Below, piece after piece: positions 2 to 10,632 of a stretch of DNA of 17,492 bases (position 1 is its first letter; the number at the start of each line of letters is the position of its first letter). The DNA comes from Pedosphaera sp. (GTDB lineage Bacteria > Verrucomicrobiota > Verrucomicrobiia > Limisphaerales > SIBH01). The stretch is from positions 1 through 17,492 of the forward strand of contig JANOQV010000191.1 of assembly GCA_031414955.1 (NCBI GenBank), given 5' to 3'. The notes under the pieces are model-generated. The model made no database searches, was not told where the DNA came from, and worked only from the letters and a program-made list of their open reading frames with translations. Made by a program: the position numbers and the translations under genes.

Positions 2-2977
2 TCGGGCAAGTCGTCGCTGGCCTTTGACACGCTCTACGCCGAGGGGCAGCGCAAATACGTGGAGTCGCTCTCGGCTTACGCGCGGCAGTTCCTCGACCAG
101 CTCCAGAAGCCGGACGTGGATTTCATCGAGGGGCTGTCGCCGTCCATCGCCATCGAGCAGCGCAGCTCCGGCTCGAACCCGCGCTCCATCATCGCCACCA
201 CCACGGAGATTTACGATTACCTGCGCCTGCTCTTCGCCAACGTCGGCCAGCCGCATTGCCCGGACTCGGGCGTGCCCATCTCCGCCCAAACCACGACCGA
301 CATCGTGGATAAGATTCTCGCGCTGCCGCCCAAGTCGCGCGTGATGGTGCTGGCCCCGGTGGTGCGCGCGCAGAAGGGGGAGTTCCGCGACGTGATCGAA
401 CGGCTGGGCCGGGAGGGCTTCGTGCGCGCGCGCATTGATGGCGCGCTGGTGGAGCTGTCCGCGAACACGCGCGTGAAGCTGGAGCCGAAGGAGAAGCACA
501 ACATTGATGTGGTGGTGGACCGGCTGGTCATTGATGACAAAATTCTCACGCGCCTGAGCGACTCGGTGGAGACGGCGTTGAAGTGGGGCGAAGGATCGTT
601 GATCACGCTCCATCAACTCCCTGACGACGGCCGCGCTTCGGCCTCCCCACCCACGAACCGGAGCGCCGGCGTCTCGCCGGCTTTGGGCGTCCGCACGCGC
701 CAAGCCGGCGTGGACGCCGCCGCTCCACAATGGACGGAGACGCTGCACTCGAATCGCGCGTTCAGTCCCGCCACGGGCAAGAGCTTCGAGCGCGTGTCGC
801 CGAAACATTTCTCCTTCAACTCGCCCCACGGCGCGTGTCCCGTCTGCCACGGCCTGGGACAGAAGATGGTTTTCGACGAGGCACTGGTCGTGCCCGATGC
901 GGACAAGTCGCTTGATGGCGGCGCGGTCTTGCCGTGGCGGCGCGGCGGGAAGCGGATGATCACCTACTACAAGGCGATGCTGCGCGCGGTGACTTCGCAT
1001 TGCGGTGCGAGCTTGGAAGCGCCTTACAAAAATCTGCCCGACGCTTTCAAAGCGAAGCTCATGCGCGGCATCGGCGAGACGGAGATTGATTTTAACTTCT
1101 GGCGCGCGGGCAAGATGAGCAAGGTGACGCGCGCGTTTGAGGGCGTGATTCCCAATCTCGAACGCCTCTACGCCGAGAGCGAGAGCGAGTTCACGCGCAA
1201 CCGGCTCAAGGGATTCATGAACCCGCAGCCGTGCGATGCGTGCGGCGGGCGGCGGCTGAAGGCGGAGATTCTGGCGGTGACACTCGGCGAACGTGCCCCC
1301 GGCGTCCCGCCGGGAGGTGATGCTGAAAAATCCGAAACCTGCCCGACAAATCAAGTGACGCAAGAAAATCGGAAGGCCCGACCCGGCGGGACGCCGGGGG
1401 CACGTTGCATTCCCGGTTCGTCCATCATGGACGTGTGCGAGATGTCCGTGGATCGCGCCGATCAGTTCTTTGCCCAACTCAGCGGCCAGCTCACCGGGTT
1501 CCAGCACAAGATTGCCGACGAGGTGATTAAGGAAATTCGTGCGCGACTCGGCTTCTTGAAGAACGTCGGCCTCGGCTACCTCACGTTGAATCGCGAAAGC
1601 GGCACGCTGTCCGGTGGCGAAGCGCAGCGCATCCGGCTGGCCACGCAGATTGGCGCGGGGTTGGTCGGTGTGCTCTACATCCTCGACGAGCCGAGCATCG
1701 GTTTGCACCAGCGCGATAATGAGCGACTGCTCGTCACACTCGAAGGACTGCGCGAACTCGGCAACACCGTGATCGTCGTCGAGCATGACGAGGACACGAT
1801 TCGCCGCGCGGATTACATCCTCGACCTCGGTCCCGGCGCGGGCGTGCGCGGCGGCGAGATTGTTGGCGCGGGGACTTTGGAGCAATTGCTGCAATCGCCT
1901 CGCTCCACGACGGCGAAGTATCTAAACGGCGAGTTAAGCATCGCCGTGCCCAAGCAGCGCGTGAAGCCGAGCAAGGAACGGGGCTGGCTCGAAGTGCTCG
2001 GCGCGACCGAGAACAACCTGAAGAACGTGGATGCGCGCATTCCCGTCGGCACGTTGACCTGCGTGACCGGCGTGAGCGGCAGCGGTAAGAGCACCCTGGT
2101 TGTGGACATTCTTCAGCGTGCGCTCTTCCGCCACATGCACGGATCGAAAGAGACGCCCGGCAAACACCGCGCCATCGAGGGCAAGGACTTGTTCGACAAG
2201 GTCATCGTCATCGACCAGACGCCGATTGGTCGCACGCCGCGGAGCAACCCGGCGACTTACACCGGGATGTTCAATCACATCCGCGACCTCTTTTCGAAGC
2301 TGCCGGCGGCGCGCATCCGCGGCTACACCACGGGCCGGTTCAGTTTCAACGTGAAGGGCGGTCGCTGCGAGAAGTGCCAGGGCGACGGCCTGATCAAGAT
2401 CGAGATGCACTTCCTACCGCCAGTCTATGTGACGTGCGAGGCGTGCGCCGGCAAACGCTACAACCGCGAGACGTTGGAGATTTCCTACAAGGGCATGAAC
2501 ATCGCCGACGTGCTGCGCATGAGCGTTGATGAGGCGGTGACTTTCTTCCGCGCCGTGCCGCAGATTTACGAGCAATGCCTGACGCTCGCCGAAGTTGGTC
2601 TCGGTTATCTCGGTCTCGGCCAGAGCGCGACCACGCTTTCCGGCGGCGAAGCCCAGCGCCTCAAGCTCGCCGCCGAGTTAAGCCGCAAGCAGACGGGCCG
2701 AACGCTCTACATCCTCGACGAGCCCACGACCGGCCTGCACTTCGCCGACGTGGCCAAGCTGCTCGAAGTGATTTTCAAACTGCGCGCCCCCGGCAACACT
2801 CTGATTGTGATCGAGCACAATCTCGACGTGATCAAAGTCGCCGACTGGGTGATCGATCTCGGTCCCGAAGGCGGGGAAGGCGGGGGAGCCATCGTGGCCC
2901 AGGGCACCCCCGAGCAAGTCGCAGCCTGCGCCGAAAGTCACACCGGACAGTACTTGAAACGGTCGCTGAAGAGGTGA
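2..2977 (+). CDS. uvrA: Excinuclease ABC subunit A (UvrA), 5'-truncated by the window edge
   Basis: Frame is open from position 2: SGKSSLAFDTLYAEGQRKYVESLSAYARQFL (end of Walker A1). Two ABC signatures LSGGEAQR, Walker B motifs YILDEPSIGLH and YILDEPTTGLH, second Walker A GVSGSGKS, Zn ligands CPVC/CDAC and CEKC/CEAC. The GTG at 59 in the ORF track is internal. Confidence 0.98.
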   Translation, partial: SGKSSLAFDTLYAEGQRKYVESLSAYARQFLDQLQKPDVDFIEGLSPSIAIEQRSSGSNPRSIIATTTEIYDYLRLLFANVGQPHCPDSGVPISAQTTTDIVDKILALPPKSRVMVLAPVVRAQKGEFRDVIERLGREGFVRARIDGALVELSANTRVKLEPKEKHNIDVVVDRLVIDDKILTRLSDSVETALKWGEGSLITLHQLPDDGRASASPPTNRSAGVSPALGVRTRQAGVDAAAPQWTETLHSNRAFSPATGKSFERVSPKHFSFNSPHGACPVCHGLGQKMVFDEALVVPDADKSLDGGAVLPWRRGGKRMITYYKAMLRAVTSHCGASLEAPYKNLPDAFKAKLMRGIGETEIDFNFWRAGKMSKVTRAFEGVIPNLERLYAESESEFTRNRLKGFMNPQPCDACGGRRLKAEILAVTLGERAPGVPPGGDAEKSETCPTNQVTQENRKARPGGTPGARCIPGSSIMDVCEMSVDRADQFFAQLSGQLTGFQHKIADEVIKEIRARLGFLKNVGLGYLTLNRESGTLSGGEAQRIRLATQIGAGLVGVLYILDEPSIGLHQRDNERLLVTLEGLRELGNTVIVVEHDEDTIRRADYILDLGPGAGVRGGEIVGAGTLEQLLQSPRSTTAKYLNGELSIAVPKQRVKPSKERGWLEVLGATENNLKNVDARIPVGTLTCVTGVSGSGKSTLVVDILQRALFRHMHGSKETPGKHRAIEGKDLFDKVIVIDQTPIGRTPRSNPATYTGMFNHIRDLFSKLPAARIRGYTTGRFSFNVKGGRCEKCQGDGLIKIEMHFLPPVYVTCEACAGKRYNRETLEISYKGMNIADVLRMSVDEAVTFFRAVPQIYEQCLTLAEVGLGYLGLGQSATTLSGGEAQRLKLAAELSRKQTGRTLYILDEPTTGLHFADVAKLLEVIFKLRAPGNTLIVIEHNLDVIKVADWVIDLGPEGGEGGGAIVAQGTPEQVAACAESHTGQYLKRSLKR
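660..726. repeat. REP/REPIN-like imperfect inverted repeat inside uvrA (element 1)
   Basis: Left arm GGAGCGCCGGCGTCTCGCCGGCTT (660-683); right arm AAGCCGGCGTGGACGCCGCCGCTCC (702-726) is its reverse complement apart from two mismatches and a 1-nt bulge. The left arm is itself a palindrome, GCCGGCG-TCT-CGCCGGC. Confidence 0.8.
1290..1406. repeat. REP-doublet (REPIN-like) element with perfect 25-bp inverted arms inside uvrA (element 2)
   Basis: AACGTGCCCCCGGCGTCCCGCCGGG (1290-1314) and CCCGGCGGGACGCCGGGGGCACGTT (1382-1406) are exact reverse complements around a 67-nt A-rich spacer. Total length 117 bp = 39 codons. Confidence 0.9.
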
Positions 2978-3687: not shown

Positions 3688-4710
3688 TCACGCCGCCAAC
3701 TTCTCGTCTTTCGGGATCGTCTCGAGGATGCGGCGGGTGATGTCGTCGCTGGTCACGCCTTCGCTTTGGGCGGCGAAATTCGCCACGATGCGGTGCCGGA
3801 AGACGGGCGGCGCGACGGCGGCGATGTCGTCGCAGCTCACGTAGGTCTGGCCGCGGAGGATGGCGCGGGCCTTCGCGGCGAGGATCAGGTTCAGGCCGGC
3901 GCGCGGGCCGGCACCCCACGAGAGCCATTTCTTGCAGAAATCGAGCGCCTCGTCCGTCTTCGGTCGCGTGCAGCGCACGAGCCGTTCGGCGTAGGCATAG
4001 ACGTGATCGGCCACGGGCATGCGGCGGACGATTTGTTGGAGGTGGAGGATTTCATCCACCGAGAGCACGGCCTGCGGCTTCTGCATCGGTGCGCCGGTCG
4101 CCATCTTCATGATCTGCAATTCCTCCGCCGCCGTCGGGTAGTCCACATGGATCATGAACATGAAGCGGTCGAGCTGCGCCTCGGGGAGCGGATAAGTGCC
4201 TTCCTGCTCGATGGGATTTTGCGTGGCGAGCACGAAGAACGGATCGGGCAGCGCGAAATCATTTCCGCCCACGGTGACTTTGCGTTCCTGCATGGCTTCG
4301 AGCATGGCGGCCTGCGTCTTGGGCGGCATGCGGTTGATTTCGTCGGCCAGAATCATGTTGGCGAAGATTGGTCCCTTGAGGAACCGGAACTCGCGCACGT
4401 TGGTCTGCGGGTCTTGGAAAATCACCTCGGTGCCGGTGATGTCGCTGGGCATGAGGTCGGGCGTGAACTGGATGCGCTTGAACGACATGTGCAGCGTTTG
4501 CGCCAGGGTGGAGACGAGCAGCGTTTTGGCGAGCCCGGGCACGCCGACGAGCAACGCGTGGCTGCGCGTGAAGATGGCGATAAGCGCCTGCTCCACGACT
4601 TCCTCCTGACCGACGATGACTTTGCCGAGCTCGGATTTGATGCGGGCGGCAGATTCCTTGAGATGCGCGACGGCCTGCAGGTCGTGGTCGGCTTTTGCTT
4701 CTTTGGTCAT
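3688..4710 (-). CDS. moxR: MoxR-family AAA+ ATPase
   Basis: Walker A GVPGLAKT, RIQFTPDLMPSDITG, Walker B ILADEINR, PPKTQAAMLEAMQE, ATQNPIEQEGTYPLPEAQLDRF, C-terminal FRHRI; 340 aa. Confidence 0.96.
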   Translation of the reverse strand: MTKEAKADHDLQAVAHLKESAARIKSELGKVIVGQEEVVEQALIAIFTRSHALLVGVPGLAKTLLVSTLAQTLHMSFKRIQFTPDLMPSDITGTEVIFQDPQTNVREFRFLKGPIFANMILADEINRMPPKTQAAMLEAMQERKVTVGGNDFALPDPFFVLATQNPIEQEGTYPLPEAQLDRFMFMIHVDYPTAAEELQIMKMATGAPMQKPQAVLSVDEILHLQQIVRRMPVADHVYAYAERLVRCTRPKTDEALDFCKKWLSWGAGPRAGLNLILAAKARAILRGQTYVSCDDIAAVAPPVFRHRIVANFAAQSEGVTSDDITRRILETIPKDEKLAA

Positions 4711-4808
4711 GATTCTTAACGGATGTTGCGGCTGGTGATAGCGGAGCGCGGCGCGGGTTCACAAGGAACTTTGCCGTGACGACAGCGGGACGCCGGCGGG
4801 ACGCTGGA

Positions 4809-5354
4809 TTAACATCCATCCACGCCCGCCTTGGTCTCCATCCAGCGGGCGAGCAGCCAGAGCACGTCGGACAGGCGATTGAGGAAAATCACGATCTCGC
4901 CATTGACCGGTTCACCGAACTCGCGCACGGCGCAGACGCGGCGCTCGGCACGGCGGCAGGCGGTGCGGGCCAGGTCGAGCGCGGCGGCGACCGGGGTCGC
5001 GCCGGGCGTGGCCCAGCCTTTGAAGGAAATCTTCTGCGCTTCGAGCTGCTTCACCAGTTCATCCAGCCGTGCCGTCATCGCCGGGGAAATGATCGTAAAG
5101 CCATCGCGTCCATAACGTCCCAGGTCATCCGGCGCGGTGGCCAGTTCTCCCATCACGTCCACGAGTTGTTTCTGCGTGATGAAAAGTTCGCCGCGCAACC
5201 ATGCATCGGAGGCGGTGGCGCGAGCCACGCCCAGCGCGGCATTGAGCTCGTCGATGGCCCCGTTGGCTTCAATGCGGGGATGAGTCTTCGGGACGCGGCG
5301 CTTATACATCAGGCCGGTGGTGCCGTCGTCGCCGGTGCGGGTTGCGATGCTCAT
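4809..5354 (-). CDS. pduO: ATP:cob(I)alamin adenosyltransferase, PduO type
   Basis: N-terminal ATRTGDDGTTGL, RVPKTHPRIEANGAIDELNA, ARTACRRAERR and FLNRLSDVLWLLAR are PduO/MMAB signature motifs; 181 aa. Confidence 0.94.
   Translation of the reverse strand: MSIATRTGDDGTTGLMYKRRVPKTHPRIEANGAIDELNAALGVARATASDAWLRGELFITQKQLVDVMGELATAPDDLGRYGRDGFTIISPAMTARLDELVKQLEAQKISFKGWATPGATPVAAALDLARTACRRAERRVCAVREFGEPVNGEIVIFLNRLSDVLWLLARWMETKAGVDGC

Positions 5355-8061: not shown

Positions 8062-10632
<2,571 letters not shown>

What the first reader, a model, noticed from the sequence alone, without database searches (positions are those of the whole stretch)
1290..1406. Perfect 117-bp palindromic element inserted in frame in uvrA and translated as a protein loop
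Seen: perfect 25-bp inverted arms (1290-1314 / 1382-1406) around a 67-nt A-rich spacer; 117 bp is a whole number of codons with no stop. It encodes most of ERAPGVPPGG...RPGGTPGARC, between ILAVTLG and SIMDVCEM just after the CDAC Zn ligands, where typical UvrA has only a few residues. Each arm contains its own palindrome, CCCGGCG-TCC-CGCCGGG. Known: REP doublets (REPINs) have this arm-spacer-arm layout and are usually extragenic; Rickettsia palindromic elements are the precedent for such repeats being tolerated inside proteins. Inference: a recent selfish-repeat insertion into a core DNA-repair gene (the arms have not decayed).
Basis: partly seen in the sequence, partly recalled or inferred. 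Interest (0 to 1): 0.78.

Follow-up and report, generated by a model that had tools for sequence, protein, structure and literature searches.

The report
REP doublet fills UvrA surface loop
A small mobile DNA hairpin repeat sits in frame in the repair gene uvrA, where it encodes a loop predicted to be floppy; the same loop was already reported to carry such repeats in Opitutus, and close relatives fill it with different repeats, so this is an old passenger in a likely tolerant loop, not a fresh insertion.

Summary
Observation confirmed: perfect 25-nt arms, 117 bp, in frame in uvrA. The arm is a dispersed REP with 12 exact copies, mostly as inverted doublets; 4 of 12 doublets lie inside gene bodies (two uvrA, priA, a BNR protein). 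'Recent' fails: congener G009 shares this insertion, with 13 of 67 spacer differences (dN/dS about 1) but identical 22-nt arm cores, while fourfold sites differ by 34%. The site, a Gly-Gly turn in solved UvrA, is an expanded loop (predicted disordered) in all 42 same-order genomes examined; all 9 genus members examined hold an inverted repeat there, from four unrelated families. Di Nocera 2013 listed two REP dimers in Opitutus terrae uvrA, and a genome carrying those peptides has them in the same two loops. The likely cognate RAYT, flanked by this REP, is read in frame inside priA of three congeners, those with the most REP copies; none was found in this assembly. The scan had already noted PriA::RAYT in other genomes and this repeat in the other uvrA. 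Verdict: new member of a known kind.

The parts
2..2977 (+). uvrA (5' end cut by the contig edge), host gene
   Evidence: NCBIfam uvrA above cut-off; Pfam UvrA domains; PDB 2R6F match
1290..1314 (+). Left REP arm: 22-nt core 1293-1314 starting GTGC (aligns with the GTAG/GTGG tag position), with an inner 7-bp hairpin; no stop codon in any frame
1315..1381 (+). 67-nt spacer, unique in this genome, homologous to the G009 spacer (13 of 67 differences, dN/dS 1.06 over 22 codons); its last 5 nt continue the right arm's family consensus
1382..1406 (-). Right REP arm, exact reverse complement of the left
1286..1414 (+). Loop 2 of UvrA (residues 429-471), in place of the Gly-Gly turn of solved UvrA; pLDDT <50 for 432-466; varies in length and content across the order
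659..728 (+). Second, partly decayed in-frame REP doublet of a different family in loop 1 (residues 206-243); same family as the REPs flanking the RAYT at G000:C184:134.0-134.9 kb

Best explanation
The 117 bp is a doublet of a dispersed REP hairpin repeat lying in frame in uvrA, in a loop predicted to be disordered; it was likely placed there by a REP-associated tyrosine transposase (RAYT) before this species split from G009, and is likely tolerated rather than used. SHOWN: (1) The arm is a multicopy repeat that mostly occurs as inverted doublets with variable spacers, a modal length of 97 nt and no target-site duplication. (2) The arm has no stop codon in any frame, and its GTGC start lacks the TAG of the canonical GTAG tag. 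(3) A RAYT with HUH and Tyr motifs, under purifying selection, is flanked on both sides by doublets of this REP in three congeners, and is itself read in frame inside priA. (4) The spacer drifts neutrally while the arm cores stay unchanged. (5) Congeners hold other repeat families in the same loop. INFERRED: the RAYT nicks single-stranded REP hairpins and copies doublets to new sites. Most insertions in genes are purged, and those that keep the frame in tolerant loops survive. A loop that is already long and unconstrained is a safe target, so it is re-occupied by whichever repeat family is amplifying in the lineage. The arms are kept perfect at the DNA level (conversion between arms or copies, or renewed RAYT action), not for their peptide.
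For: Copies and doublets in own genome. Found in 11 of 11 congeners (2-166 matches) and 0 of 2 genomes of the other genus in the family. No TSD of 5 nt or more in 85 doublets; 28 of 85 are 97 nt; the arm is stop-free. REP-RAYT-REP in frame in priA of G003, G008 and G009, RAYT dN/dS 0.08-0.13; these three genomes have the highest arm counts (166, 158, 52, against 34 or fewer). G000 vs G009: arm cores differ at 0 of 44 sites, spacer at 13 of 67, Fisher p = 0.0015; spacer dN/dS 1.06 against 0.035 for the uvrA core; fourfold sites differ by 34%. Inverted-repeat score >=13 in loop 2 in 18 of 50 UvrA, including 9 of 9 genus members, against a maximum of 9 in 87 control windows. The occupant family is more abundant in the genome that carries it. 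pLDDT <50 at 432-466 with flanks near 90. Same two loops hold the published REP-dimer peptides.
Against: No RAYT flanked by this REP was found in this genome: 0 of 12 Y1_Tnp loci. The priA contig C223 begins just downstream of the site where congeners carry the RAYT, and a second priA (C56) lacks it, so the local mobiliser is not shown. Mobility and nicking are untested. The embedded RAYTs score 65-70.5 bits against a cut-off of 80 for NF047646. Two of the four loop occupants are inverted tandem short-unit repeats with no transposase tested. Spacer dS (0.22, 22 codons) is below core dS (0.50), so the loop may have been shared more recently than the gene. The abundance patterns were taken from the occupant genomes, which biases them. 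G008 and G009 are close kin, so the link between RAYT and copy number is not three independent cases.
Confidence: 0.8

Rival explanations
1. Recent selfish insertion into a previously empty site.
For: Arms are perfectly complementary and equal the commonest arm variant of this genome. The closest congeners G005, G007 and G008 lack this element.
Against: G009 has the same element with a homologous, 19%-diverged spacer, and G003 and G006 have the same REP family at the site. No empty site in 42 same-order genomes.
Confidence: 0.04
2. A few old loop alleles are swapped between congeners by homologous recombination, so the patchy occupancy reflects gene exchange rather than repeated new insertion.
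For: The same occupant recurs on separate branches (G005 with G011, G007 with G010), with some spacer likeness. Spacer dS is below core dS for G000-G009.
Against: No clear fall in synonymous divergence within 20 codons of the loop for the 8 same-occupant pairs (0.31-0.48 near, 0.29-0.42 far). Occupants are families amplified in their own genomes, and arm variants at the site match variants common in each genome.
Confidence: 0.1
3. The insert is kept because it does something: the mRNA or DNA hairpin, or the disordered loop, tunes UvrA expression or activity (Di Nocera et al. speculated that such inserts alter repair proteins).
For: Arm cores are conserved beyond the spacer. The loop is never shorter than 12 residues in 42 same-order genomes. 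Three of four gene-internal doublets of this REP are in uvrA, uvrA2 and priA.
Against: The peptide is not conserved between congeners and the spacer has dN/dS of about 1. 25 of 31 more distant same-order genomes have no detectable inverted repeat in the loop. In-frame repeats also sit in many non-repair genes such as nuoL, leuS, valS, murC and transporters; no enrichment test against a proper background was run.
Confidence: 0.12
4. A MITE moved by a DDE transposase, or an assembly artefact.
For: Terminal inverted repeats around a non-coding-like core; the assembly has 5.8% contamination.
Against: No target-site duplication; spacers are not shared family-wide; RAYT linkage; present in a separate genome and in run contigs.
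Confidence: 0.02

Closest known systems
Intragenic GTAG-family REP dimers of Opitutus terrae, including both uvrA genes (Di Nocera et al. 2013, PMC3733652; read: passages, sections 5 and 15, part of supplement 3)
   Same: REP dimer read in frame in a verrucomicrobial uvrA, two inserts per gene. The two peptides listed for Oter_3168 fall in the same two loops in genome G259, and that REP shares the central GGCGTCCCGCC with this one.
   Different: Different stem sequence and GTGC in place of GTGG/GTAG; longer spacer (39 codons against 23 residues); different order. The paper's consensus figure is not held, so identity with a numbered family could not be checked. Turnover of occupants at one site was not described in the parts I read.
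REPIN-RAYT systems / REPtrons (Bertels and Rainey, bioRxiv 10.1101/2021.07.10.451892, passages; Quentin et al. 2018, PMC6006769, passages; Nunvar 2010, PMC2817692, search listing only)
   Same: Two inverted REPs about 100 bp apart with a variable spacer and conserved arms; a Y1 HUH transposase flanked by the same repeats; no TSD.
   Different: REPINs are said to lie almost only in extragenic space, whereas 4 of 12 doublets here are gene-internal. The RAYT is embedded in frame in priA rather than free-standing; Quentin et al. discarded over-long proteins as fusions or annotation errors.
Rickettsia palindromic elements (RPE; known to me from recall and as cited in PMC3733652)
   Same: Palindromic repeat tolerated in frame inside housekeeping proteins.
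   Different: As recalled, RPE-1 is a longer element with a family-wide peptide; here only the arms are shared, the spacer differs at each site, and a candidate transposase is linked.

Membership tests
REP doublet / REPIN | Short palindromic unit, dispersed in many copies | tested here: met
   12 exact, 31 at <=4 mismatches against 0-1 for shuffled arms; up to 166 matches in a congener
REP doublet / REPIN | Two units in inverted orientation with a variable spacer, about 100 bp | tested here: met
   12 doublets and 7 single arms in own genome; modal length 97 nt in 85 doublets
REP doublet / REPIN | Cognate RAYT (Y1 HUH) flanked by the same REP | tested here: met
   Met in 3 of 5 congeners searched; not found in own assembly (0 of 12 loci), where priA contig C223 is cut at that site
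REP doublet / REPIN | No target-site duplication | tested here: met
   No flanking repeat over 4 nt in 85 doublets; none at all in 76-80 of 85
REP doublet / REPIN | Mostly extragenic | tested here: inconclusive
   Of 12 doublets, 6 lie between or at the 3' ends of genes, 2 at 5' ends (uncertain), 4 inside gene bodies
REP doublet / REPIN | RAYT-dependent nicking or mobility | not testable with these tools
   Needs biochemistry; no precise-excision joint among the 15 of 24 joints shown
GTAG-tagged REP superfamily | GTAG (or listed variant) tetranucleotide at the foot of the stem | tested here: not met
   GTGC sits where the G259 REP has GTGG; GTAG occurs just upstream in 3 of 98 arms; related, but not a strict member
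RAYT (NCBIfam NF047646) | HUH and Tyr motifs, family score above cut-off | tested here: inconclusive
   NHVH and YI motifs present, Pfam Y1_Tnp above cut-off; NF047646 65-70.5 bits, cut-off 80
MITE | Target-site duplication and family-wide internal sequence | tested here: not met

The most novel reading that the evidence does not exclude
UvrA loop 2 (like the PriA linker) is a standing landing pad that unrelated palindromic repeat families overwrite one after another on the timescale of speciation. The enzyme that writes this family is not a free gene but a translated domain of the replication-restart helicase PriA, which would carry the HUH nuclease to stalled forks and repair intermediates and so bias insertions toward DNA-repair genes. 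The uvrA insert is then a footprint of a host-embedded REP-RAYT lifestyle.
Probability: 0.2. Interest if true: 0.72.

Novelty: new member of a known kind. Interest (0 to 1): 0.33.

Why it matters
As reported, the finding repeats a 2013 observation (REP dimers in frame in verrucomicrobial uvrA, same loops) with a new REP variant, so its own novelty is low. It adds three useful points. Perfect arms do not date a REP insertion. One protein loop is re-occupied by at least four repeat families within a genus, a natural series for asking how REPINs choose and replace targets. And this REP's likely transposase lives in frame inside priA, which I did not find in print and which gives a defined enzyme-substrate pair for the open question of how RAYTs copy REPINs and why hosts keep them.

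Tried and rejected
Own-genome RAYT: 12 Y1_Tnp loci, none with this arm nearer than 7 mismatches; a tblastn with six of them added only short fragments. Empty-site search: none among 42 same-order UvrA; a 1-residue loop only in 3 of 8 other-order genomes. uvrA of congeners G001, G002 and G004 was not fetched. TSD/MITE reading rejected. Recombination-tract test gave no clear signal. GTAG tag not found (that pattern fixed the first two arm bases, so it says nothing about them). No RNA holder was listed, so expression is unexamined, and proteomics cannot be searched here. Joints 1313>1381 most likely come from other doublets with different spacers, not excision. Whether a RAYT lies upstream of contig C223 remains open. 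The de novo classifier called 51 of 540 inverted repeats gene-internal; it missed the C12 uvrA2 case, and about 14 of the 51 look like chance pairings in ordinary coding sequence and were not followed (34 sent; 3 were annotated). No DNA-repair enrichment is claimed. The family-level motif search around G061 found 0 of 5. One search stopped with an error after 26 rows and was redone. Literature searches gave no paper on RAYT-in-PriA or on loop turnover; subscription papers, bioRxiv supplements, figures and one .doc supplement of PMC3733652 were not visible.

Full report
Observation. The inverted repeat is as described: 25-nt arms at 1290-1314 and 1382-1406, fully complementary, 67 nt apart, folding far better than 200 shuffles (z = -6.8). 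It lies in the open frame of uvrA (2..2977) and encodes E430-C469. Solved UvrA has a Gly-Gly turn here (2R6F). An AlphaFold2 model from 39 sequences has pLDDT <50 and no secondary structure at 432-466 and 210-241, with flanks of the first near 90, and it matches UvrA structures (TM 0.72-0.73). The N-terminal 60 residues are also low, since the gene is cut by the contig edge. Contigs of one run reproduce the element and both junctions without differences (possibly the source sample).

The repeat family. The window is contig C191 of a 6.5-Mb, 62% GC genome. The arm has 12 exact copies and 31 at <=4 mismatches, against 0-1 for shuffled arms; these form 12 inverted doublets and 7 singles. By Pfam and NCBIfam scans of the overlapping ORFs, 4 doublets are inside gene bodies (this uvrA, a second uvrA on C12, the C-terminal domain of priA, a BNR/LamG protein), 2 are at 5' ends and uncertain, and 6 lie between genes or over a 3' end, 5 of them between convergent genes. 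The pattern occurs in 11 of 11 congeners (2-166 matches) and 0 of 2 genomes of the family's other genus. The 80 GTDB loci listed were mostly Verrucomicrobiota MAGs, some titled Pedosphaera or Akkermansia, with a few from two MAGs titled Ca. Acidoferrum and Ca. Limnocylindria; the order name Pedosphaerales is my inference. Across 85 doublets there is no target-site duplication over 4 nt, the modal length is 97 nt, and the arm has no stop in any frame.

Age. G009 carries the same insertion: its 67-nt spacer aligns without gaps at 13 differences, while both 22-nt arm cores are identical (0 of 44; Fisher p = 0.0015). Fourfold-degenerate sites of uvrA differ by 34%. The spacer has dN/dS 1.06 over 22 codons, the uvrA core 0.035. 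So the insertion is old, its peptide is unconstrained, and the arms are conserved at the DNA level. Spacer dS (0.22) is lower than core dS (0.50), which may be noise or later sharing. G003 and G006 carry the same REP family at the site with arm variants common in their own genomes.

The site. In 50 UvrA sequences (own, 8 of 11 congeners, 2 same-family, 31 same-order, 8 same-class), the loop is 12-71 residues in all 42 same-order cases. It holds an inverted repeat scoring >=13 in 18: 9 of 9 genus, 2 of 2 family, 6 of 31 order, 1 of 8 class. None of 87 control windows scored above 9. Within the genus four unrelated occupants occur: this REP (G000, G003, G006, G009), a second REP (G008), and two inverted short-unit tandem repeats (G005 and G011; G007 and G010). 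On the uvrA tree, a five-genome clade (support 88) holds all four, and sisters G003 and G010 (support 100) differ (inner supports are only 41-81). Each alternative occupant is more abundant in the genomes that carry it (patterns taken from those genomes). Synonymous divergence near the loop does not clearly fall for same-occupant pairs, so repeated occupation is favoured over allele exchange, though not proved. Loop 1 behaves similarly (5 of 47 score >=13); here it holds a decayed doublet of the family flanking the RAYT on C184.

The transposase. None of 12 Y1_Tnp loci in this genome is flanked by the arm. In five congeners searched (47 matches), the only Y1_Tnp genes bracketed by this REP are in G003, G008 and G009. 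In each a doublet-RAYT-doublet cassette is read without a stop inside priA, between the N-terminal part and the helicase domain. HUH and Tyr motifs are present and dN/dS is 0.08-0.13, although NF047646 scores are below cut-off. These three genomes have the three highest arm counts; other congeners' priA has a short linker there, often with a different repeat. This assembly has two priA copies: C56 without the cassette, and C223, which starts inside a sister-family doublet just downstream of the site, so its state is unknown. Doublets around priA share related spacers, suggesting that whole doublets are copied locally.

What is known. Di Nocera et al. 2013 (PMC3733652; passages, sections 5 and 15, and rows of supplement 3 read) report that O. 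terrae has the most intragenic GTAG repeats of the species they analysed, that both its uvrA genes carry two REP inserts, and that repair genes are frequent hosts. For Oter_3168 they list dimers at 224-239 and 440-462. Genome G259 encodes both listed peptides, and they align with loop 1 and loop 2 of this UvrA. Its REP shares the central 11 nt with ours, with GTGG where ours has GTGC. Bertels and Rainey describe REPINs as conserved arms with a variable spacer, almost all extragenic (passages). Quentin et al. 2018 discarded over-long TnpA-Y1 proteins as fusions or errors (passages). I found no paper on RAYT inside priA or on serial replacement in one loop. The scan's own notes already hold this repeat in the C12 uvrA and several PriA::RAYT cases; I reached both before reading them.

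Mechanism. Shown: a multicopy, stop-free REP doublet; no TSD; a linked, conserved RAYT in congeners; a neutral spacer; conserved arms; changing occupants. Inferred: RAYT-driven copying, survival only in frame-keeping tolerant loops, re-targeting of an already expanded loop, and DNA-level upkeep of the arms. A function for the hairpin or loop is not excluded. In-frame repeats also sit in dnaE, leuS, valS, murC, nuoL, restriction-modification genes and transporters, and I ran no enrichment test.

Verdict. Real, well explained, and a new member of a kind described in 2013 at the same loops. Interest 0.33. The more novel context (turnover at one loop, RAYT in PriA) lies mostly outside the window and is partly known to the scan.

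Noticed in passing
L211:923-4027 (G009), L212:1314-4622 (G008), L215:1140-4370 (G003): REP doublet-RAYT-REP doublet cassette read in frame inside priA; RAYT dN/dS 0.08-0.13; these genomes have the most copies of the REP.
   Followed up: yes
L213:785-5026 (G007), L214:2558-6895 (G009), L216:2362-6456 (G003): A second RAYT, with different flanking repeats, is embedded in frame in a 1365-1446-aa protein with a weak fucokinase/guanylyltransferase-like match.
   Followed up: partly
window 659-728: Second in-frame REP doublet in UvrA loop 1, of the family flanking the RAYT at G000:C184:134.0-134.9 kb.
   Followed up: yes
G000:C223:1-1729 and G000:C56:35840-38194: Two priA copies in this assembly (96% and 89% identical to the G009 helicase part); may reflect the 5.8% contamination. 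C223 starts inside a sister-family REP doublet.
   Followed up: partly
G000:C223:1455-1551 and 1742-1838: Two doublets with near-identical spacers 287 bp apart, one in priA and one at the 5' end of a UbiA-like gene; G008 has the same arrangement.
   Followed up: partly
G000 genome-wide: 540 long inverted repeats, 338 of them in 27 families of 3 or more, including 62 inverted short-unit tandem arrays with no transposase tested; several families sit in frame in dnaE, leuS, valS, murC, nuoL, hemW and restriction-modification genes.
   Followed up: partly
L229-L258 (priA linker before the helicase domain): The priA linker is another variable loop filled with different repeats across the order.
   Followed up: partly
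window 4785-4810: Single decayed REP-like stretch (85% like 1386-1411) at the junction of two minus-strand ORFs (3688-4710 and 4809-5354).
   Followed up: no
window 8062-10632: 856-aa membrane protein that looks like a membrane-bound pyrophosphatase (recalled resemblance, not scanned).
   Followed up: no
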